Numbered from the stretch's first letter, positions 3,123 through 60,496 are shown. The stretch: DNA of 64,000 bases from Patescibacteria group bacterium (GCA_004321885.1 SCQK01000007.1:32001-96000); one strand, 5' to 3'. Numbers and translations: made by a program. Notes: generated by a model not told the origin, from the letters alone.

Positions 3123-3155
3123 TTGTCATTCCGGCCCAAGAGCCGGAATCCAGTC
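3123..3155. repeat. Hairpin repeat of the TGTCATTCC..GGAATCC family (intergenic).
   Basis: The sequence cattgtcattccggcccaagagccggaatcc is a perfect stem-loop. Confidence 0.7.
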
Positions 3156-4248
3156 AATTTATTTTTCTCACAACTCCCTTCTCCGCGTCCACCTCCACCA
3201 TATCGCCGTCTTTGAAAACCTGCGTGGCGATTTTGGTGCCGATGACGCAGGGAATGCCGAGTTCGCGCGACAGAACCGCCGCGTGCGACAACACGCCTCC
3301 CTCGTCCGTTACTACTGCCGCGCTGTTTTTCACTATTTCCATCAGTTGAGGATTGGTAGAGCTGGCAACCAGAATATAATTATTTATTGCGATTTTTCCG
3401 GTGTTGTTCTCCAAAAGCAGAACCTTGCCTGCGGCTTTCCCGGCGCAGGCCGGATACCCTTTAATCAACTTCGGCGCTTCTTTTATCTTAAAAAATTCAT
3501 CGTCAATTTTTTTTACCATCGCCGGATTTGAAATAATAAGTTCGCGCTCGCCCCGCTCTACAAATAAATAAAAAAATCCGTTGCGCCGTTTATTCAGCTC
3601 ATTCAGTTCGCCCGCGCTCAATCGCTCTTTATCTAAAAATTTTTTCATTTCCGCGACAGAAAGCAAAGCCAGCAAATCGCCGCTAAACTTCTTTCGCCGC
3701 CCCACATTATTCGCCGCGTCCGCCAGCATTTTTTCTATTTCAGGATAAAATTGAGCCATTTTTTCGCGGTTACGACTAATAGTTTTTATATATTTCGGCA
3801 GGGCCTTTTCGTTATTCCCGACAAAACGCCAAAAACAATTGATAATGCCGATAGCGGCCATAAAATTCGGATACTGCGCGGTCAACGCTTTAAGAAATTT
3901 TTCCGGCCGTGAAGAAATATATCGCCTGTGCTTCAAAATTTCGTTTTGGCATCTGGCAAAAATTCTTTCTGCGGGTTCAAAAGCCATTTTAGTTAATTTG
4001 TCAAAATTCTTTTGCGCAAATTTTTTGGTGCGGTTGATTACTTTCTGCTCATCATACATGGAATGCCAAAAATTCACGCGCCCCTTGCCCGCCACGGCGC
4101 CATACGATATTTTTATCTGCTTTCTTAACAGCTTCGTGTAACCAAGCCCAACGGCGCTTAATGAAAACAACGACATGCATCTTTGAGTGGCAGGCCTCAA
4201 TTTATGCTTTTGAATCAATCTTTTTAGTTGGCCAAAATCAACGGCCAT
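3154..4248 (-). CDS. PEP-utilizing enzyme mobile (swivel phosphohistidine) domain protein. It has no ATP-grasp domain. Paralog 1 of 3.
   Basis: C-terminal motif AAVVTDEGGVLSHAAVLSRELGIPCVIGTK..DGDMVEVDAEKGVV, which matches the PEP-utilizers swivel domain. Confidence 0.65.
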   Translation of the reverse strand: MAVDFGQLKRLIQKHKLRPATQRCMSLFSLSAVGLGYTKLLRKQIKISYGAVAGKGRVNFWHSMYDEQKVINRTKKFAQKNFDKLTKMAFEPAERIFARCQNEILKHRRYISSRPEKFLKALTAQYPNFMAAIGIINCFWRFVGNNEKALPKYIKTISRNREKMAQFYPEIEKMLADAANNVGRRKKFSGDLLALLSVAEMKKFLDKERLSAGELNELNKRRNGFFYLFVERGERELIISNPAMVKKIDDEFFKIKEAPKLIKGYPACAGKAAGKVLLLENNTGKIAINNYILVASSTNPQLMEIVKNSAAVVTDEGGVLSHAAVLSRELGIPCVIGTKIATQVFKDGDMVEVDAEKGVVRKIN

Positions 4249-4278
4249 ATGCCGATAATATACACCACCCTGCTAAAT

Positions 4279-4307
4279 TTGACAAAAACGCGAATTTGTG
4301 CTATAAA
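4279..4307 (+). promoter_or_regulatory. Sigma70-like promoter (TTGACA, 17 bp spacer, TATAAA, with an extended -10 TG) upstream of the high-GC phosphatase gene.
   Basis: ttgacaaaaacgcgaatttgtgctataaa. This is nearly identical in architecture to the promoters at 20513 and 57328. Confidence 0.5.
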
Positions 4308-4552
4308 AAACTGCTTGTTTTGTGTGAATGAAACACCACGGGCTTACGCCCGGGGAACTGCGTTAGAATATTAGCCAATCTTGGCTAACTTTCCCTAAAC
4401 AAGAGCACTTTGAAAAGGGAAAAGTACTCTTGAAAAGCATTTTGATTGTCATTCTTGCCCGTGAGCAGGAATCCAGTCAGGATGCTTTTCAGGAGGATAG
4501 GAACCCCGATTAGTCCGGCAAGGAGCCGGACACCACTGACAAGGAGAGAGAA

Positions 4553-5721: not shown

Positions 5722-5782
5722 TCACCAAAAACCGTGTCAAACTTGTCATGCTGAACTTGTTTCAGCATCTCCGTTCGCGGTT

Positions 5783-7258
5783 TCATATTTTTCTCACAAT
5801 CCCCTTCTCCGCGTCCACTTCCACCATATCCCCGTCTTTGAAAATCTTTGTAGCTATTTTTGTAGCAATAACGCACGGCTTTTTCATCTCGCGAGCCACA
5901 ATGGCCGCGTGACAAATGAGACCGCCTTCGTCCGTCACAATGGCGGCCGCCCTTTTCATCGCCGGCACCATATCCGGATCAGTCATGGAACTGACCAAAA
6001 TTTCTCCTTCCAACAAATTCTGCGCTTGGTATTCCATTTTTATCACTCTCACCCTGCCTTTTACTTTTCCGCGATAAGCCACAGCTCCTTTCACTTCCTT
6101 AACTTCTTCATGTCCAAGTCCCAGAAACTTATCAACAAATTTTCTCGCCTTATCTCCGCTGCCATCAACTATTTTTCCCCTACTAAGAAGGCAATAATAA
6201 TAGCCGAACCGTTCATTGATTACTTTTTTCAACCGCGGTCTACTTTTTTCATTCATCAGATAATCTCCCATCTGACGATAATTTAACTGCCGCAAAGATA
6301 TAACATCCATTCCAACTCGGTCGGCAATCGCCTGAAACAAAGGATAGGACCAAAGAATCGCGCGGCTCATTGCCGCCTTTCTGCCGTCGTTTGATATATT
6401 GATTCCTCGTAAATATTCTAAGATATTAAGTTCGGCGCGCGAAAATTTGTATTTTTTTAACAATTTTTGTCTTGCCCGCGAAATTTCACCCGGACCATTC
6501 AAAAGATTTTTCAATTCAACGGAAAAATTATTGTCTGAAAATGTTTTTCTAACCCCGGCGATAGCCAGGTTCAAATTTAAGGGTTGAACATGGTGGCTGA
6601 CCGGAACCCAATCAAAATTTCTAACGTAATTTTCAATTTGGCAATACAAAGCGGGGTGAAAACGTCCCAACTGTTCTATAACTTCTTCGTCGGTTTTTTT
6701 GAACAAAGATTCTAATTCATGTTGACGAACTTTCTTGGCAATATTTAATAAAGCAATCCGCTCGCGATTGTATTCTCCGAGCTCGGTGGAAGAAATCAAA
6801 ATTGACATGTCATCGGCCGGTACCGCGCACTTTAGTATGGTCGGCAATAGTGCACTAATCGCGCCATCCATAATTTTCGGAAAAGGATATAGCCCGAATT
6901 TTGCCGACAATAGCGCGACAAATTTATTAAGCAACCGGCTCAAAACATTTTTGTCAGCTTGGAAGCAATCCCGGAAACGAACTGAATGACAAAACTTAAG
7001 GAGTAGGGAGTCGGCACCTTTAATTACCGCGAGAATACGTGGAATTGAAGTCTTTTTTAACAGCCGCGCAATCCAATTCTTCGCGGCCAAATCATTTTTT
7101 GGATGATAATAAATTGATGTCAACTGCTTGTCCGTAATTGACACCCATCCGTCTAACTTTAAACCAACTCTCAATCCTTGCTCGCGAAAGCCCTTAACAA
7201 AAATGCTCATGTAAAAAGGCATTCTAATTCCGGCGGACATGAATTTTTTCCACTGCAT
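5783..7258 (-). CDS. PEP-utilizing enzyme mobile domain protein, paralog 2 of 3.
   Basis: C-terminus AAIVTDEGGLICHAAIVAREMKKPCVIATKIATKIFKDGDMVEVDAEKGIV. The 3' end shares nucleotide similarity with 3180-3260. Confidence 0.65.
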   Translation of the reverse strand: MQWKKFMSAGIRMPFYMSIFVKGFREQGLRVGLKLDGWVSITDKQLTSIYYHPKNDLAAKNWIARLLKKTSIPRILAVIKGADSLLLKFCHSVRFRDCFQADKNVLSRLLNKFVALLSAKFGLYPFPKIMDGAISALLPTILKCAVPADDMSILISSTELGEYNRERIALLNIAKKVRQHELESLFKKTDEEVIEQLGRFHPALYCQIENYVRNFDWVPVSHHVQPLNLNLAIAGVRKTFSDNNFSVELKNLLNGPGEISRARQKLLKKYKFSRAELNILEYLRGINISNDGRKAAMSRAILWSYPLFQAIADRVGMDVISLRQLNYRQMGDYLMNEKSRPRLKKVINERFGYYYCLLSRGKIVDGSGDKARKFVDKFLGLGHEEVKEVKGAVAYRGKVKGRVRVIKMEYQAQNLLEGEILVSSMTDPDMVPAMKRAAAIVTDEGGLICHAAIVAREMKKPCVIATKIATKIFKDGDMVEVDAEKGIVRKI

Positions 7259-7966: not shown

Positions 7967-8200
7967 CACCACTCCCTTCTCCGCATCCACCCCAGCGCCA
8001 AAACTCGCTTCGCTCATTTGGTGCGGGGCATGCTTCCACCATTACTGTTCTATTCTCTTCACTATACCCTTGTTCGCATCAACTTCAACGAGGTCCCCGT
8101 CCTTAAAAACCTGCGTGGCGATTTTGGTGCCAATGACGCAGGGCTTTTTCATTTCGCGCGCCACAATTGCGGTACGCAAATAGTATACCTTCGTAGCAGT
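7967..8200 (-). pseudogene. Truncated remnant of a third PEP-utilizing swivel-domain paralog (C-terminal fragment only).
   Basis: The minus-strand translation ends ..KKPCVIGTKIATQVFKDGDLVEVDANKGIV. The nucleotide sequence is similar to the 3' ends at 3180-3260 and 5800-5880. There is no complete upstream ORF. Confidence 0.5.
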
Positions 8201-8517
8201 GTTTTTGCAACAAAAAACCGCCTTTACAGACGGCTTTTTGTTAAAAAATCATTGACTTCACAAATGTGACTCCGCCAGAGGCGGATTGATAACTGACACA
8301 AAATTTATTTCGCTTGCGCTCTTAAATTTTGGTCGTTATCAAAAAAACGCACAATGTCTATTCCTTCATCTTTGGCGACTGTTACCGCGATGGATTCCTG
8401 CTTGCGCAGGAATGACAGCGTGGACAATTTGCCAATCGACAGAGTATCACAGTGTTTCCACTGAGTATCTCCAGAAAGGAGGTGATCCATCCACAGCTTC
8501 CGCTACGGATGCCTTGT

Positions 8518-9285: not shown

Positions 9286-9696
9286 TTACGACTTTACCCT
9301 AGTCACTGACCCTGCCTTAATTCCCCGAAGGAAACTTTGGGCATTGCCAGCTCCCGTGGTATGACGGGCGGTGAGTACAAGACCCGAGAACGTATTCAAC
9401 GCGCCGTGGCTGATGCGCGTTTACTAGCGATTCCGACTTCATGAAGGCGAGTTGCAGCCTTCAATCTGAACTGGGGCCGGTTTTGATGGGATTGGCTCCG
9501 CCTCGCGGCTTAGCGACCCATTGTACCGGCCATTGTAGCATGTGTGTAGCCCTGGACGTAAGAGCCATGCTGATTTGACGTCGTCCACCCCTTCCTCCCG
9601 GCCCGCTGTTCGCTTGCTTTCGCAAACGCCCAAAGGGCCGGGCGGTCTCGCGTGAATATTTAACACGCGACGTGGGTTGCGCTCGTTTCCCAACTT

Positions 9697-9985
9697 AATG
9701 GTACACCTCCGGATTATTATCTTCACGCAGACTATTCCTTCACCCTTTGCCGACTAAGTCGGCATGAGGGGCTGGCGTATTAGCGGAACTATAAATTCAA
9801 TCACATCCATGAATTCCGCTCTTGGCAAAATGCCTTAGTCGTTACAGGGTCAACCCACGATTTTATTTAAAATCGGGGCGACTTCCCTCGGAGTTCCCAA
9901 ATTCATATGGTATATTTTACCATTTTTACATGAATTTGATAATGAGGTTCTCCGATATGAGCCAGATTTCTCATATCTCTTTTCA
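9697..9985 (-). mobile_element. Insertion 2 in the 16S gene, about 290 bp with no ORF, interrupting the conserved region around position 1070-1100.
   Basis: GGGTTGCGCTCGTT..CCCAACTTAA is followed by about 290 bp of non-rRNA sequence before ATGTTCACGGCACGAGCTGACG resumes. It shares a cgacttccctcgg motif with the other two insertions. Confidence 0.55.
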
Positions 9986-10118: not shown

Positions 10119-10163
<45 letters not shown>

Positions 10164-13368: not shown

Positions 13369-14064
13369 TTAAGAAGAATGTCTCTTTCGCCACTCGGCGA
13401 TTTTTTTATGAGCGCCGGAGAGAAGAATTTTCGGCACTTTCCAGCCGTTGAAATCTTCGGGTCTGGTGTACTGCGGGTATTCAATCACTCCTTTAACAAA
13501 AGTTTCTTCCTTGAGAGAATCTTTGTTCCCCAAAACTCCCGGCGTCAAACGCGCGGTCGCTTCCACCACTGCCAGCGCGGCCAACTCGCCGCCGGCCAAA
13601 ACATAGTCCCCCACGGAAATTTTTTCGTCCGCGAGTTTATAGACGCGTTCGTCAAATCCCTCGTAGCGCCCACAAATCAAAATCAGGCGGTCAAGTTTGG
13701 AAAATTTCTCGGCCATCCGCTGGTCAAATTTTTTTCCTGCTGGATCTAAAACGATAATCCGCGTGTCATTGCGAGGAGCGGAGCGACGCGGCAATCCCAT
13801 GGGTTTGCTTCGGCCTTTCAGGCCTCGCAATGACAATGCGCCAATCGCTTTCAGACAATCAAAAATCGGCTGAACCTGTAAAACCATTCCCGCGCCGCCG
13901 CCATAGGGAGAATCGTCCACGTGGCCGTGCTTATCCAAAGTATGGTCGCGAAAATTACGCGCCCGCACCGAAATCGCGCCCGCTTTTTGCGCCCGCCCTA
14001 AAATACTCCGCGAGCAGTAGTCGTTTATTATTTCCGGAAAAATTGTGAGCACGTCAAATTTCAT
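13369..14064 (-). CDS. trmD: tRNA (guanine37-N1)-methyltransferase.
   Basis: MKFDVLTIFPE..YGGGAGMV..LICGRYEGFDERV is the characteristic TrmD signature. It lies downstream of rpsP and the KH gene. Confidence 0.85.
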   Translation of the reverse strand: MKFDVLTIFPEIINDYCSRSILGRAQKAGAISVRARNFRDHTLDKHGHVDDSPYGGGAGMVLQVQPIFDCLKAIGALSLRGLKGRSKPMGLPRRSAPRNDTRIIVLDPAGKKFDQRMAEKFSKLDRLILICGRYEGFDERVYKLADEKISVGDYVLAGGELAALAVVEATARLTPGVLGNKDSLKEETFVKGVIEYPQYTRPEDFNGWKVPKILLSGAHKKIAEWRKRHSS

Positions 14065-14930: not shown

Positions 14931-14962
14931 ATATGGATTCCGGCTCTGCGGCCGGAATGACA
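14931..14962. repeat. GGAATGACA-family hairpin (intergenic).
   Basis: ggattccggctctgcggccggaatgacag. Confidence 0.6.
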
Positions 14963-15062: not shown

Positions 15063-18000
15063 TATCGTATTGCTCGGCTTCTTCCATTTTCACGCTAAGC
15101 AGTTTGGAAACGCCGTCGCTGCCCATCACCACGCCGTAAAGCGCGTCGGCCGCGTGCATGGTCACGCGGTTGTGAGTGATGATAATAAACTGCGACTGCG
15201 ACGACAGTTCAGCCATAATCTGCGCGAAACGGCGAGTGTTGGTTTCGTCCAAAGCCGCCTCCACTTCGTCCAGTACCACAAATGGCGCCGGATTGAAATT
15301 GAGCACCGCGCAAATGAGGGCGATGGAGGCCAGGGTGCGTTCGCCGCCCGACAAAGCGTTGATATTGCGGATTTTTTTACCAGGTGGATTAATCGTGATA
15401 TCTATACCAGTAAGAACTTTTTTCACGCTGGATTCCTGCTCCCTGTTCGGAGCCAGGGACAAGTTTCGCGGGAATGACAATGTTGGGTCGGACTCAACTT
15501 GCCCTACTTCAACTACGTCTGCATTATTTTCTTCCTCGCCATACACTTCTTTCATATCAGCGCTGCCTCCTCCGAACAAGAGCTTCACGTAACGCTCAAA
15601 TTCTTTTCTTATTTTCTTAAACGCGGCGGCGCGTTTCTTTTTCATGATGTCGTCCAGTTCCTCTATCATTTTTTCCAAATCTTCAATAGCCGCGCGCAAA
15701 TCAGTAATCTGGCCGTCCAAAAAGTCAAACTTTTCCTTGGTGTCGGCGTGCTCTTTCACCACTTCCTCATCTATGCCGCCTATCAAACTTAATTGGTATT
15801 TTAATTTTTGTATCTCGGCCAGCGCCTCACCCATTTTTTCCGGCTCAATCTCTGGCGGACGGCGCTCAATCAACGCCTCCACCGACGCGTTCATTTCGGC
15901 GCGCGCCTCGGCAACAATGGCATCCTGGCGCGTGTCCAGTTTGGCCTGTTCTATTTTCAAATCATTACGGGTTGTCAAAATACCGTTAAGGGTATTCTGC
16001 TTTTTTTGCATTTCTTCCTGCAAAGAAAAGACGCGTTGTTTTTTCTCTTCTTCGCTCGCGTTAAATTTAGAAATTTTTTCCGCCAATTTGTCTATCTCAT
16101 CCTGTTTGGCGCTGATTTGCTTATCCAAAGCGGATTTTTCCAGAGACAATCCGGAAACAATCTCGCCATATTCTTTCGGGTCGGCTTCTTGCAGGGCCAA
16201 TTCTTGTTCCAAGCCCGCGATTTCCGCCTCCGCGGCGTTGGTTTCCGCGGCCAAAAGAGCGGCGCGGCCGTCGGCCGCGTCTTTTTTTGTCTGCGATTTG
16301 AGCGCCTCGGCCCGTTCGCTTTCTAGCCGCGTTTCCAGCTCAACCATTTTTTCTTTGGCCATTTTTATTTCCAATTGATATTCCGCGAATCTGTCCGGCC
16401 CCATGTAAAACTTGCGCGAAAAACCCAGCCCGGCCCTTTTCTGCTGGCGCCAGCCGCCCTTCATCACGCCGCTTTTTTCCACCAAATCGCCATCCAAAGT
16501 CGCCATACGCGCCCGGCCCACGCCCACGTGGTTGGCCGTTGCCAAATCATTCACAATAATGGTCTGTCCGAAAACAAAAGAAAAAATTTCGGCGAATTTC
16601 GCTTCGTATCTCACCAATTCGCTGGCCAGTCCCAAAACGCCGGCTTCTCGCAAAATCTTATCATCCGGCGGCGCTTCCCTGCCGGATATTTTTGTCAAAG
16701 GCAAAAAAGTGGCCACGCCCAGCCGGTTGGCGCGCAAAAATTCTATGGCCTGGCGCGCGGTCTCTTCGTCTTCCACTACAATGGCCGAGAGATACGAACC
16801 CGCGGCCACCTCCAAAGCCGGACGGTATTTTTCCTCGGCGCCGCCCAATTCAGAAATTAGCCCGTACACCTTGCCGAATTTATTTTTATTTTCCAAAACC
16901 GCCTGCACAGCCAAGAGGCCGGTGAACTGCCGGTAGTGTTTTTCCGACTGGTCGTCCAGCGCTTGTTTTTCCAGCCGCGTCACTTCCATCTGGGTATCCG
17001 CGCGCTCTTGCGCCAGCGCGTCCAGTTGTTTTTGTTTTTGCAAAAGCGCCCGCAGGGCCGCGGCCGACTCGCCGCGAATGGCGGCCAAGTCCTTGGTCAA
17101 AAAATCTTTTTTCAATTTCAGTTCGGCCAGCTTGTTCCGCAACCAACCCACGTTCTGCTTGCCAGCCAGGTTGTATTGCGCCTGCATCTGGCCTTCCTTG
17201 ATGGCGCGCTGGCGCTCCAAATCATTTTTTTCTTTGAGAACCATTTCGTAGCCGGATTGCAATTCGCCAAAAACTTCCTGACGTGATTTGGTGTGCGCCA
17301 AAGACGCCAGTTCGGTTTGCGCTGTTTCCAATTCACCAAAAGCCCGGCGGTATTCGCTTTCAACCCCGACCAACGAAGCGGCCAGCCGGTCAAGTTCTTT
17401 TTTATTCGCCAGATAAGCCGAGCTGTAATACCGTTCCTGCCACTCGCGCAAAGAGCGCTCCACTTCCTGCCTCTTCTCCAGTTTCTTCACCTGTCTGGAC
17501 AAAATTTTCAAGCGCGGCTCCACCTCTTGCATCAAGCGCCCGGCCTGTTCTATGTTCTCGCGCGTGCGCGCCAATTTAAGTTCGGCCTGGTGCTGTTTGA
17601 TTTGAAATTCTTTTATGCCCGAGGCTTCGTCCAAAAAATCCTTGCGCTCGGCCGGCCCCACGGTAAGCAAGCGGTCTATCATCCCCTGGCCGATGATGCT
17701 GTAAGAATGCTGGGCGAACTGGGCTTTGGCCAAAAGCAAATGCACGTCCAGCAAGCGCGCGGGGCGGTTGTTTATCAGATACTCGCCCTCGCCCGAACGA
17801 AACATCCGGCGCGTGATGGCGATTTCCGGATACTCGGACAATACTTTGCCGTCGCTGTTATCCAAAACCATGGTAACCTCGGCCGCGGATAACTGGCCTT
17901 TGGCTTCCGAACCGCCGAAAATTATGTCTTCATTTTTTTTGCCGCGCAAATTTTTCAAACTCTGTTCGCCCATCACCCAGCGCAAGGCGTCGGAGACATT

Positions 18001-18817: not shown

Positions 18818-19807
18818 ATGCAGGCGAAATTTCAAGAACTAAACAATCTACTCCTTAAAGCTGAAAACATAGTTATCGCCATTCACCAAAATCCGGACGG
18901 CGATGCTTTGGGTTCGGCCGCGGCCCTGGCCGAGTATCTCTCTGACAAAGGAAAAAATTTCTCCATATATTGCGCCACCGCGCACCCGGAAAATTTCAAA
19001 TTTTTATCCCACGTCAATGCCATTACCGCGGAGGCCGCGGTTTTAAGCTTGGCTAATTTAATCGTGGTAATGGACTCAGGCGATTTGCGCTACGCCGGTC
19101 TGGATTCCCGCGATGGATTCCGGCTCCTGGGCCGGAATGACAGAAAGGGAGGGGGGAATGACAATCCAAAAATCATTAACATTGACCACCACATCAGCAA
19201 CGAGCAATTCGGATTTTTGAATATCACGGACAGCCAGGCCTCGGCCACGGCGCAGATAGTTTATGATTTTTTTCGCAGTGAGCGCGTGGCGATTTCACCG
19301 GCCATGGCCACGGCGCTACTCACCGGCCTGGTTTGCGATACGGACAACTTTACCAACGGCGGCACCACGCCCGCGTCTCTGGAAGCCGCCGGCCACCTCT
19401 TGCGCTCGGGGGCCAATCTGCCGCTGGTGCACAGATGGGTGATAAAAAATTCCTCGCTCAATCTGCTCAAACTCTGGGGCATTGTGCTGGAGCGGCTGGA
19501 AAAAATTGAGGAAAAAAATCTGGCCTACACCTATATCACCAACGAAGATTACTTGCGCTATGGCATCACCGAGCTAGGGGCCGAAGGCATTGCCAATTTG
19601 CTGAACAAGCTGGGCGGGGTGCAAATCTCCCTGCTTATCCGCGAAACCATGGACGGCAAAATCAAAGGCAGTTTTAGAACCACCTCGGACAATACCGACG
19701 TTTCGGCGCTGGCCAAAAAACTGGGCGGCGGCGGGCATGCCAAGGCGGCCGGTTTTACGACTGAAGGCACCATAGAAGACGTGCTCAACAAAATTTTGAC
19801 GATGTGA
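18818..19807 (+). CDS. nrnA: DHH-family phosphoesterase (NrnA-like oligoribonuclease / pAp phosphatase). It has an in-frame hairpin-repeat insertion (..RDGFRLLGRNDRKGGGND..).
   Basis: NPDGDALGS, DHH and GGGH motifs. The repeat ggattccggctcctgggccggaatgacag at 19116-19144 lies inside the CDS. Confidence 0.75.
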   Translation: MQAKFQELNNLLLKAENIVIAIHQNPDGDALGSAAALAEYLSDKGKNFSIYCATAHPENFKFLSHVNAITAEAAVLSLANLIVVMDSGDLRYAGLDSRDGFRLLGRNDRKGGGNDNPKIINIDHHISNEQFGFLNITDSQASATAQIVYDFFRSERVAISPAMATALLTGLVCDTDNFTNGGTTPASLEAAGHLLRSGANLPLVHRWVIKNSSLNLLKLWGIVLERLEKIEEKNLAYTYITNEDYLRYGITELGAEGIANLLNKLGGVQISLLIRETMDGKIKGSFRTTSDNTDVSALAKKLGGGGHAKAAGFTTEGTIEDVLNKILTM

Positions 19808-19868
19808 TAAAAATCTGCTAAACTAAACTAACGGATTCCCCCGACTAAGTCGGGAGAATGACAATTAT

Positions 19869-37847: not shown

Positions 37848-39455
37848 ATGCGCGCAGTTGCAAAAATTTTTCTTCTTCTGGCCGGCTGGCTTATCGTCGT
37901 TTCCATTGTTTCCAATTCGTTTGACAACGACCTGGGCTGGCATTTGCGCTTTGGCCAAGACGCCCTAAGCGGCGATTTTCAGTACACCGACAGTTATACC
38001 TGGGGCTTTGCCGGGCGCGAGTGGGTAAACCACGAATGGGGGGCCGATATTTTATTTTGGATTATTTACAGCCGCGTCGGCTACTTCGCCCTGGCGCTTC
38101 TCATCGGCACGGTAATCTGGGCGGCATTTGTGCTGGCGCCTCTTATTTTTGCGCGTTTCAGTTTAGGCGCTCTCGCGATTTCGCTGCTCATGGCCCTGGC
38201 CGCGGGCTTTACTTTTGTCACGCGCGTCTCCATGGCGGCGCCGCTGTTTTTTGTTTTGCTCTGGTTTTCGCTGGAAAGAAAAAAATATTTTTTCCTGTGG
38301 CCGATTTTATTCTGGGCGTGGTCTTTTCTGCATGGTAGTTGGATACTGGGATTTATTTTAATAAACATTTATTTGGTTGGAGAAATAATTCCCTCCACTA
38401 TTAGAGCCTGCCCTGAACTTGTTTCAGGGGGAGGGACAAAAGGTGGAGTTGGCAAGAAGCTCTGCTGGCAAATCATTTCCGCGGCCGCGATTCTTCTCAA
38501 TCCGTACGGCATAAAACTCTGGCGCGAGGTGCTCTCCTATTTTATATACAGCGACTACAAGCGGCTGATTATTGAATGGCTGCCAAGCTACAGTTACCCC
38601 ATTCGCTGGTGGCCCATAATTATCGCGGGAGCGGCCGGCGTTTTGCTTTACCTGGGGTGGAAAAACAAAAAAGCGTCTTTGACCCACGTATTGTTATTTT
38701 TGGCCATATTTTTAGCCGCCATGCAATACAAGCGCAACAATATTTTGCTGACGCTCGTTTGCGCGCCGATTTTCGCAATAGCTTTGGAAGAAACAAAGAA
38801 GAAACTACTCTCAATTGCCATTCCGAACCCGAAGGGTGAGGAATCCCTTCGCCTTACGAGTAAGTTTAAGGGATTCCTCGCTCCGCTCGGAATGACAACG
38901 GCGATTGTCCTCTTCGCCGTCTCAGCCGTTTATTACCTTCCCCGCCTGCGGGCGCAAAATGACGTCTGGCAGGACAAAAATTTTTTGACCCGGCACGGCT
39001 TTCCGGTCAAAGCCGTTGATTTTGTAAAAAAACTACCGGCCGGAGCGAAAATTTTCAACGAATTCGGCTGGGGCGGTTTTTTTATCTGGCAAACGCCGCA
39101 AGTAAAAATGTATTTTGACGGACGGGGCGCGGCCACCTGGCGCGACGCCAATGGCGAATTCATGCTTAAAAAATATCTGCGCTACCTTGGCGAAAAAAAA
39201 CAGTTGCCCGAATTAAGCAAAACTCCGGCTGAATATATTTTGCTGGAAAAAAACAGGCTGGCCCTGCCGCCGCCCGGCTGGAGCGACAAACTGTTTTTCA
39301 AAAAAGAAAACTTGGCAAAAATAATGGAGCGCAAGCCGCCGTTGCTTGAAACCGACCTGACGAAAAGCAGTGATTGGAAACTGATTTACAGCGACGAGAT
39401 GACGAACATTTGGAAAAGAACCGCGGACATGAATTCCGGCTCAAGCCCGGAATGA
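37848..39455 (+). CDS. Polytopic membrane protein, possibly a GT-C-fold glycosyltransferase. It contains two in-frame palindromic insertions.
   Basis: More than 10 predicted TM segments. The elements at 38395-38445 (..RACPELVSGGGTKGGVG..) and 38866-38905 (..PKGEESLRLTSKFKGF..) are translated in frame. Confidence 0.5.
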   Translation: MRAVAKIFLLLAGWLIVVSIVSNSFDNDLGWHLRFGQDALSGDFQYTDSYTWGFAGREWVNHEWGADILFWIIYSRVGYFALALLIGTVIWAAFVLAPLIFARFSLGALAISLLMALAAGFTFVTRVSMAAPLFFVLLWFSLERKKYFFLWPILFWAWSFLHGSWILGFILINIYLVGEIIPSTIRACPELVSGGGTKGGVGKKLCWQIISAAAILLNPYGIKLWREVLSYFIYSDYKRLIIEWLPSYSYPIRWWPIIIAGAAGVLLYLGWKNKKASLTHVLLFLAIFLAAMQYKRNNILLTLVCAPIFAIALEETKKKLLSIAIPNPKGEESLRLTSKFKGFLAPLGMTTAIVLFAVSAVYYLPRLRAQNDVWQDKNFLTRHGFPVKAVDFVKKLPAGAKIFNEFGWGGFFIWQTPQVKMYFDGRGAATWRDANGEFMLKKYLRYLGEKKQLPELSKTPAEYILLEKNRLALPPPGWSDKLFFKKENLAKIMERKPPLLETDLTKSSDWKLIYSDEMTNIWKRTADMNSGSSPE

Positions 39456-39464
39456 CAATCGCGG

Positions 39465-43433: not shown

Positions 43434-43441
43434 ATGTTTTT

Positions 43442-43476: not shown

Positions 43477-43477
43477 C

Positions 43478-46481: not shown

Positions 46482-46593
46482 CCCCACTGTCATTCCGAGC
46501 GGAGCGAGGAATCCCTTATACTACGTTAACAGTTTCTATATCCCCCTTCTTCAAATGCAACACAATCGCCAGCGCCTCGCACAGCCACGAGGC
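46482..46593. repeat. 112 bp direct repeat (copy 1). It includes a MITE-like hairpin and a duplicated 3' gene tail.
   Basis: About 90 percent identical to 47237-47348. On the minus strand it encodes ..EALAIVLHLKKGDIETVNVV with a stop, as a remnant. Confidence 0.75.
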
Positions 46594-47218: not shown

Positions 47219-47236
47219 ACTTCGTTTCCCTCCCCG

Positions 47237-47348
47237 CCCCACTGTCATTCTGAGCGGAGCGAGGAATCCCTTACACTACGTTAACAGTTTCTATATCCCC
47301 TTTTTTCAAATGCAACACTATCGCCAGCGCCTCGCGCAGCCAAGAGGC
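47237..47348. repeat. 112 bp direct repeat (copy 2), overlapping the authentic 3' end of the gene 47271-48254.
   Basis: See copy 1. Confidence 0.75.
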
Positions 47349-55428: not shown

Positions 55429-55791
55429 TTATGCGACTATATTATACCACAAAAAAAGCTCCGTAACAACGAAGCTGGGGATAAAAATACACGGGAAGCA
55501 GCCCGAGAGCTGAATGGGAGACGAGCCGTCGTTCCAGTCAATCTTTACATCTCGTATGGGCATCTGGTTCATGTCGGCATAAGCGTAAAATTTGAGGGTA
55601 ACGCGGGAGGGAGAGACGGGTATTGTTACGTCAGCGCTGGTTTTGTCGTTGATGGTGAGGCCTTCGGCGCCCTCAAAACAGATGCCGTTCCGGCAATTTA
55701 CCGCATCCAAGCTGTATACATTGTTTAATTTGGCAAACAAATAATTCAAATCGTTAAACAACCCTTTTTCCACCTGGCACTGGCTTTGCAC
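55429..55791 (-). pseudogene. Internally deleted fragment of the Cys-rich secreted paralog family.
   Basis: ..EKGLFNDLNYLFAKLNNVYSLD[deletion]AVNCRNGICFEGAEGLTINDKTSADV.IPVSPSRVTLKFYAYADMNQMPIRDVKIDWNDGSSPIQLSG is nearly identical to a segment of 58457-59842 but lacks both ends. Confidence 0.6.
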
Positions 55792-57327: not shown

Positions 57328-57356
57328 TTGACAAAAGGGTGTTTTTGTGTTATGTT
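57328..57356 (+). promoter_or_regulatory. Sigma70-like promoter (TTGACA, 17 bp spacer, TATGTT) within the left inverted-repeat arm.
   Basis: ttgacaaaagggtgtttttgtgttatgtt. A mirrored copy lies on the minus strand near 60560-60595. Confidence 0.45.
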
Positions 57357-57432
57357 GTATGGTTCTTTCACAAAGTGCTAAGTAGGCCAGTATATGGCCT
57401 GGTTAGCCACAAAAGAAGGTTTGGGTAAAGAG

Positions 57433-57572
57433 TGTCATTGCGAGAAGGGAGCGTAAGCGACCGACGCCTGTCCGCCTCTGGCGGAAAGCAATCCCAGTCA
57501 ATTACGAAAGGCCTGCCTGTCGGCAGGCAGGGATTGCCGCGTCGCTCACTGCGTTCGCTCCTCGCAATGACA
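57433..57572. repeat. MITE-like element of about 140 bp with imperfect terminal inverted repeats of about 30 bp (TGTCATTGCGAG...CTCGCAATGACA), in the 5' leader of a lipoprotein gene.
   Basis: tgtcattgcgagaagggagcgtaagcgac ... gtcgctcactgcgttcgctcctcgcaatgaca. A second copy lies at 60357-60496. Confidence 0.7.
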
Positions 57573-57613
57573 AACAACGTTTTTCCCCGCTTCGGCGGGG
57601 AAGGAGAAAGTCC

Positions 57614-58009
57614 ATGCTGAAGAAATTGATCGCCACCCTCCTCTGCGTCGCGTTCGCGATGCTCGCCGCGTCCTGCGGCGATGATGGCAAGACCCCGCCC
57701 CCGTCCGACGCGCGGGTCTCGCCCGAACTCCGCGCGGACGGTTGTCCGCCCGGACGAAAAAGGGACAACGTGTCCGGCGAGTGCGTGCTCGCCGACGGGC
57801 TTGTGCCAGACACGAAGAAACCCACGCCGGATACGGGTGTGTGCCCCACACTGCCGAAGGAGGAGGTTGCGTGCAAATTGGGCAAAACCACTGTCGTCAG
57901 TTGCACACTGACAAAGTGGAAACCTGGTGGCTGTGTCGACGTGTGGTGCGCGTGCAACACCGACCCTGGTTGTAACGGGTGGTGGCGCCGCGCTGACTGC
58001 GGCCTCTAA
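57614..58009 (+). CDS. Small Cys-rich lipoprotein (variant A), high-GC.
   Basis: MLKKLIATLLCVAFAMLAASCGDD with a lipobox. 13 Cys in the mature part. Confidence 0.6.
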   Translation: MLKKLIATLLCVAFAMLAASCGDDGKTPPPSDARVSPELRADGCPPGRKRDNVSGECVLADGLVPDTKKPTPDTGVCPTLPKEEVACKLGKTTVVSCTLTKWKPGGCVDVWCACNTDPGCNGWWRRADCGL

Positions 58010-58089: not shown

Positions 58090-58455
58090 TTACAAGACGA
58101 ACTTTAAAAGATTTTTTAATTCTTTTTCCTCTTCTATAAACTTTTTTTTCATCCTGCGAGCGGCGGCATAGCTGATTTGAAAGTCATTTTTTAATTGACG
58201 GGCGGTGTAATTTGAATCGCTTAAATAATTTTCAAACGCGGATAACCATTTTACCAAAGGTATTCTTGTCTTGTGGAATACTACCTCGGAGATGTCGGAA
58301 AATCTCCTTAAACAATTTTGACAAGTGTATTTTTTTATTTTCCTTTTATCTCTAATGGTGTAAACTCTCTTTGAGAAACAATCAGGACAAACCAGACCGC
58401 GAGGCCAATTCATTCTGCGCAGTGCCTGAAGGATTTGCGTTTCAGAATATATCAT
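58090..58455 (-). pseudogene. N-terminal fragment of an IS1595-family transposase (zinc-ribbon plus HTH only; DDE domain absent).
   Basis: CPDCFSKRVY....YTCQNCLRRFS zinc ribbon followed by PLVKWLSAFENYLSDSNYTARQLKNDFQISYAAARRM, typical of the IS1595 N-terminal region. It is only 121 aa. Confidence 0.5.
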
Positions 58456-58456: not shown

Positions 58457-59842
58457 TCATTTCGGAGCTACAATGATGGATTTGGGAGAGGAGCCGCCGA
58501 AGGGGGTCCAGGCACCACTATCTAAAGGAAAACATTCATCATCGTAAGTATTCCCGGTGATTTGTCTTCTATCATAACACCCCGTCTTCCCCGGGCTATT
58601 CGCGTCACCGCACACCCCATTACACCACCCCCAATTATCCTTGACCTGTACCTTGGGGGTGTATTTGCAACAGCCTTCTTTGAAAGCGAGGTCGGACGGG
58701 CATTGAGAAGCCGGAACAAAGTTGGCGCTGTCTTTGACGCACTGATAGGAATAGTCGGCGCGGAAGTACGCGTTGTCGCAGGTTTTGTCCACAATCTGGC
58801 CGAAGTTGGGGGCGATGTTTTCCGGCAGGCATTGGTCTATGTTTTTGCAGTCATTCACTGACTGGCACTCTTTGTTTGTTGGTTTCTCAGTACCATACAC
58901 TTCTTTGTGCGTCACGGTATTATAAGAAGCTGTTTTTATATAGCAATATTTCTTGGCGTTAAATTCCCCGCCAACGGATTGGAAATCGCATTTCGTGCCT
59001 GTGGTTTTGCCTCGGTGATTGCGGAAGTAGCCCGAGAGCTGAATGGGAGACGAACCATCGCCCCAGTCAATTTTTACATCTCGTATGGGCATCTGGTTCA
59101 TGTCGGCATAAGCGTAAAATTTGAGGGTAACGCGGGAGGGAGAGACCGGTATTTTCACGTCATCACTGGTTTTGTCGTTGATGGTGAGGCCTTCGGTGCC
59201 CTCAAAACAAATGCCATTCCGGCAATTTACCGCTAAAATTTTCGGAGCCAAAGCCGCAGAAGATTGCTCGGTCGCATTGAAAAGATTATTTTGCGAAGAA
59301 ACGCGCGCCTGATAAACTCCAGCCTCATCCAAGCTGTATACATTGTTTAATTTGGCAAACAAATAATTCAAATCGTTAAACATCCCTTTTTCTATCTGGC
59401 TGTCCGAAAGCTGGCTTAGCAGCGGAGGCGCCGGCCTGGAAAAATCAAGCGTGCCGTCCACGGCGCCGCTCGCGGTCTTGTTCGTCTGCCCGCCTGGATT
59501 GATATTTTTGGAACTGTAAGGCGCGCCGGTCACAGTTTGGCTGGTGTTTTGCTGGCGAGGGCCGTACAGTAATTTAATATCTTCCTTATCCGTTAAAGGA
59601 GGATTAGTGATATTTAGACTGCCAAACGGAGACATCAGGGTTTTGAAAATATAGTCGGCCAATTTATCCACACCTGTCGGCGAGGTATGCAAATTAACAG
59701 TAAAATTTCCGCCTTCCCAAATTCTGTTTGTTTTGGCCGTATTGGCCCTGTAAGCCGCGTCCGCGATTTGCATAAATTTTCTTAAAGTAGTATTGCGTAT
59801 TCTCTTGAAAAGAGAAGGGATTCTCTGCTCAAGGGAACGCAC
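58457..59842 (-). CDS. Cys-rich secreted protein, a member of a paralogous family that also includes 60699-64000 and the fragment 55429-55791.
   Basis: It shares a C-terminal stretch of about 60 identical residues (NIAPNFGQIVDKTCDNAYFRADYSYQCVKDSANFVPASQCPSDLAFKEGCCKYTPKVQVKDNWGWCNG) with the large paralog. Confidence 0.6.
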   Translation of the reverse strand: MRSLEQRIPSLFKRIRNTTLRKFMQIADAAYRANTAKTNRIWEGGNFTVNLHTSPTGVDKLADYIFKTLMSPFGSLNITNPPLTDKEDIKLLYGPRQQNTSQTVTGAPYSSKNINPGGQTNKTASGAVDGTLDFSRPAPPLLSQLSDSQIEKGMFNDLNYLFAKLNNVYSLDEAGVYQARVSSQNNLFNATEQSSAALAPKILAVNCRNGICFEGTEGLTINDKTSDDVKIPVSPSRVTLKFYAYADMNQMPIRDVKIDWGDGSSPIQLSGYFRNHRGKTTGTKCDFQSVGGEFNAKKYCYIKTASYNTVTHKEVYGTEKPTNKECQSVNDCKNIDQCLPENIAPNFGQIVDKTCDNAYFRADYSYQCVKDSANFVPASQCPSDLAFKEGCCKYTPKVQVKDNWGWCNGVCGDANSPGKTGCYDRRQITGNTYDDECFPLDSGAWTPFGGSSPKSIIVAPK

Positions 59843-59893
59843 CGCGAGGCGATGCGTGAGAAGGTTAGGATGGGTGGGCGAGGTGGGGCGACG

Positions 59894-60316
59894 TCACTGC
59901 TTGGTGCAGGTGACATACTTGTCAGCTGTTTGACAAGATGTCGACTGTGCCGAAGCACAGGGAGCAACCGCCCCCCCCCCGTTCGTACAAGGGAAACGAC
60001 AGCCAGAGCCGTCTTTGTTCTCTGTCCCATCTGGAGAACATTGACGGATTTCTGATCCGGTGCACACCCACGTACCACCTTTCGGGCACTTCCCAGACGT
60101 GGTGTCCGGCGTGGGCGTTCCCTTGTCGCACTTCCCCTGCGCCGAGACGACGCAGGTAGGAAACGAGTCGCCGACGAGCCCGTCGGCGCGGAGAGTGTCC
60201 GCAATGCGCGCGTCGGACGGGGGGGCGGAGCCGGTGTCATCGCCGCAGGACGCGGCGAGCGTCGCGAACGCGACGAGCGTCGCGCAAAGGAGGATAGCGT
60301 TCAATTTCTTCAGCAT
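59894..60316 (-). CDS. Small Cys-rich lipoprotein (variant B), high-GC.
   Basis: MLKKLNAILLCATLVAFATLAASCGDD. The leader and 5' UTR mirror variant A, while the mature region is divergent. Confidence 0.6.
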   Translation of the reverse strand: MLKKLNAILLCATLVAFATLAASCGDDTGSAPPSDARIADTLRADGLVGDSFPTCVVSAQGKCDKGTPTPDTTSGKCPKGGTWVCTGSEIRQCSPDGTENKDGSGCRFPCTNGGGAVAPCASAQSTSCQTADKYVTCTKQ

Positions 60317-60356
60317 GTTCCTTCTCCTTCCCCACCGAAGCGGGGGTTTCGTTGTT

Positions 60357-60496
60357 TGTCATTGCGAGGAGCGAACGTAGTGAGCGACGCGGCAATCCCT
60401 GCCTGTCGACAGGCAGGCTTTTCGTAATTGACTTGGATTGCTTTCCGCCAGAGGCGGACAGGCGTCGGTCGCTTACGCTCCCTTCTCGCAATGACA
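60357..60496. repeat. Second copy of the MITE-like element of about 140 bp, in inverted orientation.
   Basis: tgtcattgcgaggagcgaacgtagtgagcgac ... ctcccttctcgcaatgaca. Confidence 0.7.

What the first reader, a model, noticed from the sequence alone, without database searches (positions are those of the whole stretch)
3123..60496. GGAATGACA hairpin and MITE family ranging from stem-loops of about 30 bp to elements of about 140 bp with TIRs
Short hairpins ending in GGAATGACA (or starting TGTCATTCC) occur at 3123, 4440, 8393, 14931, 19116, 38873, 39430, 46488 and 47243. Two larger elements (57433-57572 and 60357-60496) have terminal inverted repeats of about 30 bp that begin with the same TGTCATTGCGAG. 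The short forms may be deletion derivatives of a MITE. Several sit exactly at gene boundaries or inside genes, and two flank the duplicated promoter arms. This implicates them in local rearrangements.
Basis: seen in the sequence. Interest (0 to 1): 0.5.

Follow-up and report, generated by a model that had tools for sequence, protein, structure and literature searches.

The report
TGTC-tagged hairpin repeats in a CPR genome
The repeated GGAATGACA hairpins are real, but they are a known bacterial repeat type (the "CGTC-tagged REP" or "Ssn-related motif" family, which includes Neisseria dRS3/NTS and Rickettsia RPE-4/6), seen here in a candidate-phyla-radiation (CPR) bacterium where some copies sit in frame inside essential genes.

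Summary
The motif is real and far from chance: GGAATGACA occurs 10 times against 0.5 expected. I count about 15 single units and 3 doublets in a 64-kb piece of a Patescibacteria (CPR) MAG.

Class 1 has 11 loci. Each has an unpaired TGTC tag, a 7-11 bp stem that always starts A-T/T-A, and a CC(A) tail. The inner stem shows compensatory changes. This matches the published CGTC-tagged REP superfamily (Di Nocera 2013), which includes Neisseria dRS3 and Rickettsia RPE-4/6. It also matches the NTS/SRM hairpins bound and cut as ssDNA by the small GIY-YIG nuclease Ssn (Chenal 2025).

I found 96-aa ssn-like genes in other CPR genomes, bracketed by such hairpins with the tags pointing outward. About 70% of 80 metagenomic ssn loci show a hairpin on each given side. 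The window itself has no ssn gene.

Class 2 (TGTCATTGCGAG…) covers the two 140-bp elements, a 72-bp doublet in frame in trmD, and three singles. It shares the termini but folds only arm against arm, and it is not enriched near ssn.

This is a new host lineage for a known kind of repeat, of modest interest.

The parts
638..670 (+). Class 1 unit TGTC|ATTCCCCCGAC-TTA-GTCGGGGGAAT|CCAT. It fills the 45-nt gap between the HATPase gene stop (678) and the refined ribE start (632), and ends 5 nt before that ATG.
   Evidence: (11-bp stem, z -6.1). One of the 2 copies that match the published SRM regex.
2847..2872 (+). Class 1 stem variant TGTC|ATCCCGAC-TGA-GTCGGGAT|CCC inside the NAD(P)H-hydrate dehydratase gene. 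It encodes RDPDSVGMT.
   Evidence: (z -3.1)
3124..3151 (+). Class 1 unit TGTC|ATTCCGGC-CCAAGA-GCCGGAAT|CC, 2 nt after the stop of PEP-utiliser paralogue A and 7 nt before the next gene's start.
   Evidence: (z -4.7)
4447..4474 (+). Degenerate class 1 unit TGTC|ATTCTTGC…GCAGGAAT|CC. It is 78% identical, over 46 nt, to the 3124 junction.
   Evidence: D11; weak, z -1.75
5744..5770 (+). Class 1 stem variant TGTC|ATGCTGAA-CTTGT-TTCAGCAT|CT, 12 nt after the stop of PEP-utiliser paralogue B.
   Evidence: (z -4.1). Near-identical variants (ATCCTGAACTTGTTTCAGGAT) occur in other phyla.
8390..8417 (-). Class 1 unit TGTC|ATTCCTGC-GCAA-GCAGGAAT|CCAT, intergenic, 110 nt from the rRNA/intron block.
   Evidence: (z -4.5)
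14935..14962 (-). Class 1 unit between smc and rpsP, 12 nt upstream of the rpsP start and downstream of a TTGACA-17-TAAGAT promoter-like site.
   Evidence: (z -3.5)
15430..15479 (-). Long, interrupted class 1 unit in frame inside smc (peptide LSFPRNLSLAPNREQES). It lies within a roughly 36-aa insertion relative to solved SMC heads.
19102..19163 (-). Cluster in frame inside the DHH/NrnA-like gene: a 3' half unit, a full unit at 19115-19142, and a 5' half unit at 19151-19163. It encodes GLDSRDGFRLLGRNDRKGGGND, about 16 aa more than in the aligned solved phosphodiesterase (TmPDE, PDB 5o1u), lying upstream of the conserved DHH motif.
   Evidence: (z -3.8)
19831..19863 (-). Class 1 unit, one stem base different from the 638 copy. 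It ends 5 nt before the clpP ATG, the same position relative to a start codon as 638.
   Evidence: (z -3.7)
39430..39457 (-). Class 1 unit TGTC|ATTCCGG-GCTTGAG-CCGGAAT|TCA. Its GGAATGACA end supplies the TGA stop of the 563-aa ORF.
   Evidence: (z -2.5)
38836..38897 (-). Class 2 single TGTCATTCCGAGCGGAGCGAGGAATCCC plus a truncated inverted partner (12-bp stem GAGGAATCCCTT/AAGGGATTCCTC), in frame in the 563-aa ORF.
   Evidence: (z -3.5)
46488..46515 (+). Class 2 single (no hairpin by itself), part of a 129-nt segmental duplicate of the 47220-47348 junction.
   Evidence: (D6)
47243..47270 (+). Class 2 single immediately after the stop of the 327-aa ORF. The ATG inside GAATGACA is picked up by ORF callers.
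13764..13835 (.). Class 2 doublet (72 bp = 24 codons; tags outward; arms meet at CCCATGGG) in frame in trmD. It encodes LSLRGLKGRSKPMGLPRRSAPRND, about 21 residues more than the aligned region of a solved TrmD.
   Evidence: (z -3.1). The same site and type occur in another CPR trmD (L252).
57433..57572 (.). Class 2 doublet (140 bp, imperfect TIR from TGTCATTGCGAG) in the 5' leader of a lipoprotein gene, inside the left arm of an inverted duplication.
   Evidence: (z -6.9)
60357..60496 (.). Paralogous copy of the 140-bp doublet in the right arm (96% identical including 22 nt and 7 nt of flank).

Best explanation
The TGTCATTCC…GGAATCC hairpins are members of the CGTC/TGTC-tagged REP superfamily, also called Ssn-related motifs (SRM). 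This is the same kind of element as Neisseria dRS3/NTS and Rickettsia RPE-4/6.

Each unit is a DNA hairpin that forms when the strand is single-stranded. A small single-domain GIY-YIG nuclease (Ssn, about 95 aa) recognises the stem and the C just 3' of it, and cuts a few bases upstream of the GTC tag.

The ssn gene normally sits between two such hairpins with the tags pointing outward. Gene-less pairs in the same geometry (doublets) and single units are scattered through the genome.

In this compact CPR genome they occupy the tiny gaps between genes. Where the protein tolerates it, they occupy surface loops of proteins, and there they are read through in frame.

What is shown: the anatomy, the non-randomness, the stem covariation, the intragenic in-frame positions, and the ssn-hairpin linkage in other CPR and metagenomic loci.

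What is inferred: that this genome encodes an Ssn, that Ssn or its cassette is what multiplies the repeats, and any role in limiting incoming ssDNA as in Neisseria.

The TGTCATTGCGAG elements (72 and 140 bp) share the tag and tail but are a separate TIR-type subclass whose partner is unknown.
For: Anatomy. All full units have an unpaired TGTC tag, stem positions 1-2 are always A-T/T-A, and the tail is CC(A). Positions 3 and 5-8 of the stem change on both sides while staying paired: 97 of 100 cells are Watson-Crick or G-T. A tag-plus-hairpin search finds 9 in the window against 0.24 in Markov shuffles.

Match to published definitions. [quoted passage not shown] Chenal 2025 gives NTS as CGTCATTCCCGCG…CGCGGGAATCYRG. 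In that work the C after the palindrome is critical for binding and the 3 nt before it for cleavage, and ssnA is flanked by these motifs.

Our own data.
- In 288 units from 120 loci of many phyla, the tag is TGTC in 246 and CGTC in 40. The base after the stem is C in 283.
- Ssn-like single-domain GIY-YIG ORFs of 96 aa lie next to such hairpins in CPR contigs L174, L242 and L249, in MAG nzgw370 (L209), and in a viral contig L060.
- Among 80 metagenomic ssn loci, 51 of 73 have a unit within 150 nt upstream (46 tag-outward). 55 of 76 have one downstream (47 tag-outward), and 37 have both.
- Neighbouring unit pairs are tag-outward in 82 of 108 cases.
- The catalytic residue spacing Y8-Y19-E66 equals the Y6-Y17-E64 of N. 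meningitidis SsnA.

In-frame inserts in TrmD, DHH and SMC are shown by alignment to solved structures. SRM doublets also occur in trmD of two other CPR lineages.
Against: - There is no ssn or other GIY-YIG ORF in the 64-kb window. The rest of the MAG could not be reached.
- The published degenerate SRM pattern matches only 2 window copies.
- One genome carries many different stems, while Chenal 2025 report that changing the stem sequence abolishes SsnA activity.
- No transposition by Ssn has ever been shown.
- No close relative was available, so I have no presence/absence polymorphism that would prove mobility.
- The class 2 elements are not enriched near ssn (0.021 against 0.024 per kb), and their arms do not fold alone.
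- CDD family cd10448 membership of the CPR proteins was not testable.
Confidence: 0.75

Rival explanations
1. First reader's model. All copies are one MITE family derived from, and moved by, a DDE transposon such as the IS1595 element whose fragment lies at 58090-58455. The short hairpins are internally deleted MITEs.
For: The doublets have imperfect TIRs. A Zn_ribbon_IS1595 ORF lies between the two 140-bp copies.
Against: - The ORF has only the zinc ribbon. No DDE domain occurs in any ORF of 100 aa or more between the two 140-bp elements.
- No target-site duplications flank any copy.
- The two 140-bp copies are part of a roughly 415-bp inverted duplication of a promoter-leader-signal-peptide region, not transposon ends.
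- The short units are the canonical monomer found in many phyla, next to GIY-YIG genes rather than IS1595.
- No recurring transposase ORF occurs between class 2 arms in 120 viral-contig loci.
Confidence: 0.04
2. They are classical REP/REPIN elements multiplied by a RAYT (IS200/IS605-like HUH tyrosine transposase).
For: The general look is the same: a short tagged hairpin, frequent inverted doublets, no TSD, and location just after stop codons. Di Nocera 2013 treats both as sister superfamilies.
Against: - The tag is TGTC/CGTC, not GTAG.
- Di Nocera 2013 found no RAYT flanked by CGTC repeats.
- No Y1 transposase domain occurs among 53 window ORFs scanned with Pfam.
- The gene found between such hairpins is a GIY-YIG nuclease.
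Confidence: 0.05
3. Their main role is at the RNA level, as terminators, 3'-end stabilisers or translational regulators. Their spread reflects selection for that role rather than an enzyme-driven process. This is not exclusive of the best explanation.
For: - Most intergenic copies lie 2-23 nt from a stop or start codon.
- The copies at 638 and 19831 both end 5 nt before an ATG and carry a GGGGGA/GGGAGA stretch.
- The 140-bp copies sit in a strongly structured, highly conserved leader.
- REPs are known to act on mRNA (Di Nocera 2013).
Against: - No T-tract follows most units. Only 3 meet a loose terminator scan, and 2 of those are on the wrong strand.
- Copies occur in both orientations relative to transcription and inside coding sequences.
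- The conserved features (tag, AT, 3' C) are those needed for Ssn binding and cutting of ssDNA, not for an RNA hairpin.
Confidence: 0.15
4. The class 2 elements (TGTCATTGCGAG… and TGTCATTCCGAGCGGAGCGAGG…) are an independent non-autonomous element family with its own, still unknown, partner. They resemble the Ssn hairpins only at the terminal 7-9 bases.
For: - The arms do not fold alone (z +1.2 to -2.8) but fold arm against arm.
- They are not enriched near ssn, whereas GTCATTCC is enriched about 4-fold.
- The arm consensus TGTCATTGCGAGGAGCGAAGCGACGTGGCAATC is conserved across 151 copies in viral contigs, with a partner most often 80-100 bp away.
- No paper in the held library contains the sequence.
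Against: - They share the tag TGTC, the ATTSC…GSAAT closing pairs and the CC tail with class 1.
- The two classes occupy the same trmD loop in different CPR lineages.
- A class 2 fragment abuts the class 1 hairpin upstream of a Doudnabacteria ssn gene.
Confidence: 0.35

Closest known systems
CGTC-tagged REP superfamily (Di Nocera, De Gregorio & Rocco 2013, BMC Genomics 14:522; PMC3733652)
   Same: It shares the unpaired CGTC/TGTC tag, the stem starting A-T/T-A, a short loop, the CCA tail, frequent inverted dimers, location within 20 nt of ORF ends, and in-frame intragenic copies that are often dimers encoding 20-30 aa.
   Different: [quoted passage not shown] Here the stems are 7-11 bp and the loops 3-7 nt, with several stem variants in one 64-kb stretch. 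The class 2 TIR-type elements are not among its four families as far as I could read.
Neisseria dRS3 / NTS and 'Ssn-related motifs' with the SsnA GIY-YIG ssDNA nuclease (Chenal et al. 2025, Nat Commun 16:2388; PMC11893778)
   Same: The NTS sequence CGTCATTCCCGCG…CGCGGGAATCYRG has the same GTCATTCC…GGAATCC frame. The functionally critical bases (3 nt before the stem, C after it) are the invariant ones here. Genes for GIY-YIG proteins of about 95 aa are bracketed by the hairpins, including in CPR contigs.
   Different: There is no ssn gene in the window, and only 2 of about 12 units match the published SRM pattern. That paper does not mention CPR or intragenic copies. In Neisseria the units cluster in intergenic arrays (NIMEs), whereas here most are single and fill minimal intergenic gaps or protein loops.
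Rickettsia palindromic elements RPE-4/RPE-6 (Ogata et al. 2000; equated with CGTC-4/CGTC-1 by Di Nocera 2013)
   Same: These are palindromic repeats inserted in frame into conserved protein-coding genes, at positions where the protein tolerates extra residues.
   Different: The host lineage is different. I did not compare the RPE sequences directly. The equivalence rests on Di Nocera 2013.
REPIN/RAYT systems (Bertels & Rainey 2011)
   Same: An inverted doublet of tagged hairpins acts as the likely replicating unit. A single-copy partner gene is bracketed by the same hairpins. There are no TSDs.
   Different: The tag is GTAG and the partner is an HUH tyrosine transposase. Here the tag is TGTC and the candidate partner is a GIY-YIG nuclease that has not been shown to transpose anything.

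Membership tests
CGTC-tagged REP superfamily | Unpaired 5' tetranucleotide tag CGTC (variants TGTC, CCTC) | tested here: met
   TGTC precedes the stem in every full unit and stays unpaired in the MFE folds.
CGTC-tagged REP superfamily | Stem of about 8-9 bp whose first two pairs are A-T and T-A | tested here: met
   10 of 10 window units have A-T then T-A. Stems are 7-11 bp.
CGTC-tagged REP superfamily | Short unpaired tail, consensus CCA | tested here: met
   The tails are CCAT, CCAG, CCGT, CCCT and CTCC, with one TCA.
CGTC-tagged REP superfamily | Loop of 4-5 nt | tested here: inconclusive
   Loops here are 3-7 nt. The paper itself notes exceptions.
CGTC-tagged REP superfamily | High copy number, dispersed, often as inverted dimers | tested here: inconclusive
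   The window has about 21 unit-equivalents in 64 kb, including 3 doublets. In other genomes 82 of 108 neighbouring pairs are tag-outward. A whole-genome count for this MAG was not possible.
Ssn-related motif (SRM) / Ssn system | Hairpin with conserved upstream GTCAT and a C immediately 3' of the palindrome | tested here: met
   compared
Ssn-related motif (SRM) / Ssn system | Match to the published degenerate pattern HGTCWYN(0-2)YYVSBRHN(0-5)WNVSBRGN(0-2)RNCYNB | tested here: not met
   Only 638-670 and 19831-19863 match (2 against 0.2 expected). The other stems violate the R/S positions of a pattern that was derived from 29 genomes.
Ssn-related motif (SRM) / Ssn system | An ssn gene (single-domain GIY-YIG of about 94 aa, CDD cd10448) in the same genome, typically bracketed by the motifs | not testable with these tools
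   None is present in the window. The source contig is not in the look-up index, and a lineage-specific repeat is absent from the JGI metagenome contigs. The linkage is shown only in other CPR contigs and in 80 metagenomic loci.
Ssn-related motif (SRM) / Ssn system | Strand-specific binding and cleavage of the motif as ssDNA by the cognate Ssn | not testable with these tools
   This needs biochemistry.
MITE of an IS1595-type DDE transposon | TIRs matching those of a full-length IS with a DDE transposase, plus target-site duplications | tested here: not met
   There is only a zinc-ribbon ORF and no DDE domain, no TSDs, and no parent ORF between arms in 120 further loci.
REP/REPIN-RAYT | GTAG tag and an associated HUH tyrosine transposase | tested here: not met
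   The tag is TGTC, and no Y1 transposase domain occurs in the window ORFs.
Intrinsic terminators | GC-rich stem followed by a T-run on the transcribed strand | tested here: not met
   Only 3 units pass a loose scan, and only one (14937-14958) is in the right orientation.

The most novel reading that the evidence does not exclude
In CPR bacteria the ssn cassette (tagged hairpin, 95-aa GIY-YIG gene, inverted tagged hairpin) may be an active or recently active mobile element of a new mechanistic type, a GIY-YIG-driven ssDNA element.

Its gene-less doublets would then behave as MITEs that colonise and persist in loops of essential proteins. One example is the same trmD site occupied in lineages whose TrmD proteins are only 59% identical.

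The TGTCATTGCGAG TIR doublets would be an undescribed second non-autonomous family with an unknown partner. They are spread across many phyla and onto viral contigs.
Probability: 0.2. Interest if true: 0.6.

Novelty: new member of a known kind. Interest (0 to 1): 0.3.

Why it matters
For annotation: these units create spurious ORFs, false starts (ATG) and false stops (TGA), all inside GGAATGACA. They also add peptides such as SLRG…RND and LDSR…GND to real CPR proteins, so recognising them improves gene calls and alignments for a poorly annotated phylum.

For biology: the finding extends the Ssn/SRM repeat system to CPR genomes. Di Nocera 2013 concluded that these repeats lacked a dedicated transposase, and Chenal 2025 then linked them to Ssn. 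The consistent ends-outward geometry around ssn genes and in gene-less doublets gives a concrete, testable model for how the repeats multiply. None of this is unexpected enough to rank high.

Tried and rejected
- Neisseria origin: no DUS, no dRS3 exact pattern and no Correia ends. The window is a Patescibacteria MAG.
- Retrieving the rest of the source genome: exact-protein look-ups failed for three window proteins. A lineage-specific 29-mer was absent from the JGI metagenomes.
- Empty-site comparison: the closest TrmD is only 71% identical, and blastn of the window against all fetched loci found only conserved genes. Presence/absence analysis was therefore impossible.
- Literature search by the encoded peptides (VIPAKAGIQ, SFPRKRES, and others) and by the class 2 DNA words gave nothing relevant.
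- GIY-YIG genes in 120 viral loci found by regex: none at first. One was later found by tblastn (L060).
- A parent element for class 2: arm pairs 250-3500 bp apart in viral contigs enclose phage-like ORFs, with no recurring enzyme.
- Rfam: no family matches the 140-bp element or its leader.
- Solved structures: none exists for the Ssn-like protein by sequence.
- Strand bias relative to replication: 7 plus against 8 minus, so no bias. Relative to transcription, about 12 of 15 units have the TGTC strand as the template strand. That is suggestive only, given the small number.
- A 2026 bioRxiv preprint that mentions SsnA and repetitive hairpins could not be opened.

Full report
**Source of the window.** The window comes from a Patescibacteria (CPR) metagenome-assembled genome. 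Its TrmD is 100% identical to an NCBI protein from a 'Patescibacteria group bacterium' on a 214,539-bp contig, and the nearest other TrmD is 71% identical. The 16S rRNA gene carries large insertions with LAGLIDADG ORFs and a group I intron. rRNA-gene insertions are reported to be frequent in CPR (abstract of PMC11270868).

**The observation.** GGAATGACA occurs 10 times against 0.5 expected. TGTCATTGCGAG with up to one mismatch occurs 8 times against 0.32 expected. The additions are 638-670, 15430-15479, 19831-19863, a half unit at 19151-19163, two units with different stems but the same tag (2847-2872 and 5744-5770), and a 72-bp doublet at 13764-13835. In total I count about 15 single units and 3 doublets.

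**Anatomy of class 1.** Class 1 comprises 11 loci and reads TGTC | AT-stem-loop-stem-AT | CC(A).
- As ssDNA, the stem always begins directly after TGTC. The tag and tail stay unpaired, and 10 of 14 single units fold with z below -3.
- Stem positions 1-2 are invariably A-T and T-A. Positions 3 and 5-8 change on both sides while staying paired (C-G, G-C, T-A and A-T types), and 97 of 100 cells pair.
- A search for 'GTCAT followed at once by a hairpin' finds 9 in the window against 0.24 in shuffles. Other pentamers ending in AT give 0-4.

**Anatomy of class 2.** Class 2 has the same TGTCATT start and AATCC(C) end, but the interior (GCGAGGAGCGGAGCGACGCGGC, or CCGAGCGGAGCGAGG) is not a palindrome.
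- The arms do not fold by themselves (z +1.2 to -2.8; the 46488 and 47243 copies).
- They fold arm against arm as a doublet: the 72-bp element has z -3.1 and the 140-bp element has z -6.9.

**Genomic context.**
- Intergenic units fill very short gaps. Unit 3124 lies 2 nt after one stop and 7 nt before the next start.
- Units 638 and 19831, which differ by one stem base, both end 5 nt before an ATG (ribE and clpP).
- Unit 39430 supplies the TGA stop of a 563-aa ORF. Unit 47243 supplies a spurious ATG.

**Intragenic copies.** Five genes carry units in frame.
- trmD carries a 72-bp doublet encoding LSLRGLKGRSKPMGLPRRSAPRND, about 21 residues more than the aligned region of a solved TrmD.
- A DHH/NrnA-like gene carries a cluster encoding GLDSRDGFRLLGRNDRKGGGND, about 16 aa more than in a solved phosphodiesterase.
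- smc carries SFPRNLSLAPNREQES within a roughly 36-aa insertion in the head domain.
- The NAD(P)H-hydrate dehydratase gene carries DPDSVGMT.
- The 563-aa ORF carries two units.

**Not all copies are independent.**
- Units 46488 and 47243 lie in a 129-nt segmental duplication that also carries the 3' end of a gene.
- The two 140-bp elements are 96% identical. Each sits inside an arm of a roughly 415-bp inverted duplication, and each arm is a promoter (TTGACA-17-TATGTT), a 250-nt leader and the lipoprotein signal peptide of one of two convergent paralogues.
- The 140-bp elements are therefore internal to the arms, not at their borders.

**What it is: literature.** Two papers in the library describe this architecture.
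- Di Nocera et al. 2013 (PMC3733652) define a 'CGTC-tagged' REP superfamily. [quoted passage not shown] - The same authors equate CGTC-1 with Neisseria dRS3, and CGTC-1 and CGTC-4 with Rickettsia RPE-6 and RPE-4. They concluded that these repeats 'apparently lack a dedicated transposase'.
- Chenal et al. 2025 (PMC11893778) show that the extended dRS3, NTS = CGTCATTCCCGCGMAVGCGGGAATCYRG, is bound and cut as ssDNA on one strand only. The enzyme is SsnA, a 94-aa single-domain GIY-YIG protein.
- In that work the C just after the palindrome is critical for binding, and the three bases before it are critical for cleavage. The ssnA homologues across phyla are flanked by such 'Ssn-related motifs' (71% with at least one, 42% on both sides).
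- Neither paper mentions CPR (five phyla listed).

**What it is: tests with sequence collections.**
The hits include about 43 loci from many CPR lineages, plus Delta- and Gammaproteobacteria, Chloroflexi, Bacteroidota, Firmicutes, Elusimicrobia and others.
- In those loci I found 288 tagged hairpins. The tag is TGTC in 246 and CGTC in 40, and the base after the stem is C in 283. Several of the window's other stem variants recur there.
- Neighbouring units are tag-outward in 82 of 108 pairs.
- Two loci carry a 96-aa single-domain GIY-YIG ORF (Pfam PF01541, E 4e-14 and 7.5e-16) right next to the hairpins. One is a Kerfeldbacteria (CPR) contig. In the other (MAG nzgw370) the gene is bracketed by arrays of units. 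A third such gene sits on a viral contig.
- This protein family has over 4,400 members at E ≤ 1e-10, including named Patescibacteria and Doudnabacteria proteins.
- In two further CPR contigs, a unit ends just upstream of the ssn start codon (6-7 nt in the sequence shown), and an inverted unit follows the stop.
- In 80 metagenomic ssn loci, 51 of 73 have a unit within 150 nt upstream (46 tag-outward). 55 of 76 have one downstream (47 tag-outward), and 37 have both. This reproduces the published association on independent data.
- The conserved Y8, Y19 and E66 residues have the same spacing as the residues mutated in N. meningitidis SsnA, Y6, Y17 and E64.

**Other CPR trmD genes.** Among 120 TrmD homologues, many carry inserts at two loop hot spots with repeat-derived peptides. 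At the DNA level, L252 has a class 2 doublet at exactly the window's site (AIGA|LSLRG…ARND) plus a class 1 doublet at the second site. L253 has a class 1 doublet at the first site. Doublets are therefore the usual intragenic form, as reported for Rickettsia.

**Limits.**
- The window has no ssn gene, and I could not reach the rest of the genome.
- The published SRM pattern matches only 2 window units.
- No relative is close enough for presence/absence tests.
- Class 2 words are not enriched near ssn genes (0.021 against 0.024 per kb), while GTCATTCC is enriched about 4-fold.
- A scan of viral contigs shows a conserved class 2 arm, TGTCATTGCGAGGAGCGAAGCGACGTGGCAATC, with a partner most often 80-100 bp away. 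No recurring enzyme lies between distant arms, and no paper in the library contains the sequence.
- Class 2 is therefore best described as a TIR-type, MITE-like relative with an unknown partner.

- The family and its shared termini are real, and 'MITE-like' fits the doublets.
- The IS1595 ORF has only a zinc ribbon and no DDE domain, and there are no TSDs.
- The 140-bp elements do not delimit the duplication.
- The short hairpins are the canonical monomer of a known superfamily. Whether singles are decayed doublets, as argued for REPINs, cannot be decided here.
- A terminator role is not supported in general. RNA-level effects of individual copies remain possible, for example the copies in the structured, highly conserved leaders.

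**Verdict.** This is a real, strongly non-random repeat family. It is a new host lineage (CPR) for a known kind of element, the CGTC/TGTC-tagged REPs or Ssn-related motifs. It shows the known habit of in-frame insertion into housekeeping genes. One less-characterised TIR subclass accompanies it. Interest is modest.

Noticed in passing
window 8528-12098 (-): The 16S rRNA gene spans 2861 nt for a 1533-nt model. It has a LAGLIDADG_2 ORF (10336-11097) inside it. At its 3' end there is an Rfam group I intron hit (8528-9297) that contains a LAGLIDADG_3 ORF (8552-9223). rRNA-gene insertions are reported to be common in CPR.
   Followed up: partly
window 15024-15063, 27023-27062, 39699-39738, 43437-43476, 44315-44354, 44468-44507, 44907-44946, 45341-45380: A second hairpin repeat family, CCCTCCCCTT-NNN-AAGGGGAGGG followed by GGGAGGGG-like sequence. 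Several copies lie inside ORFs. The matching peptides (for example PSIPPLKGEGRGE) also appear as inserts in TrmD of other CPR bacteria.
   Followed up: partly
window 20824-20865 and 39903-39944: Two identical 42-nt palindromic copies, TGGCTCCACAGCCCCGACTAAGTCGGGGACTATGGAGCCAGC. Their CCCGAC-NNN-GTCGGG core is the same as the stem of tagged units 638, 19831 and 2847, but in different flanks. The 29-mer core was absent from the JGI metagenome contigs.
   Followed up: partly
window 23802-23832 and 44343-44379: A third hairpin type built on CACACCAAA-ATT-TTTGGTGTG, with 14-17 bp perfect stems. A related CACCAAA…TTTGGTG hairpin lies downstream of the third PEP-utiliser paralogue fragment near 7990-8030.
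   Followed up: no
window 57328-57741 and 60180-60602: An inverted duplication of a promoter, a 250-nt leader and a lipoprotein signal peptide, driving two convergent paralogues. The leader is 96-100% identical while the coding part is about 80% identical. The leader RNA folds strongly (z -8.5) and a CCCCGC-TTCG-GCGGGG hairpin overlaps the Shine-Dalgarno sequence. It matches no Rfam family.
   Followed up: partly
window 34154-37672: A tRNA-Ser(GCT) gene is followed by a GC-richer block (0.54-0.59) that ends in a large serine recombinase gene (36164-37672, minus strand). This is probably an integrated element.
   Followed up: no
window 3154-4248, 5783-7258, 8048-8194: Three paralogous copies of a PEP-utilising-enzyme mobile-domain C-terminus, the third only a fragment. 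Paralogues A and B each have a tagged hairpin right after the stop, but with different stems.
   Followed up: partly
window 55494-55704, 59023-59233, 61235-61445; 58616-58852, 60825-61061: Direct repeats at 78-94% identity link the 120-aa, 461-aa and 1089-aa ORFs, which have no Pfam hits. This points to a paralogous family of large proteins of unknown function in the 55-64 kb region.
   Followed up: no
window 40876-43906: Type IV secretion or conjugation-like genes: a TraG/VirB4-like P-loop ATPase (40876-42747) and a PrgI family protein (43478-43906).
   Followed up: no
loci L121-L240 (genome contigs): Identical 22-nt stem-loop variants of the tagged hairpin (for example ATTCCGGCCTCCGAGCCGGAAT, present in 46 loci) recur in more than ten phyla. 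The same set of variants co-occurs in unrelated MAGs. Chenal 2025 nevertheless report that changing the stem sequence abolishes SsnA activity.
   Followed up: partly
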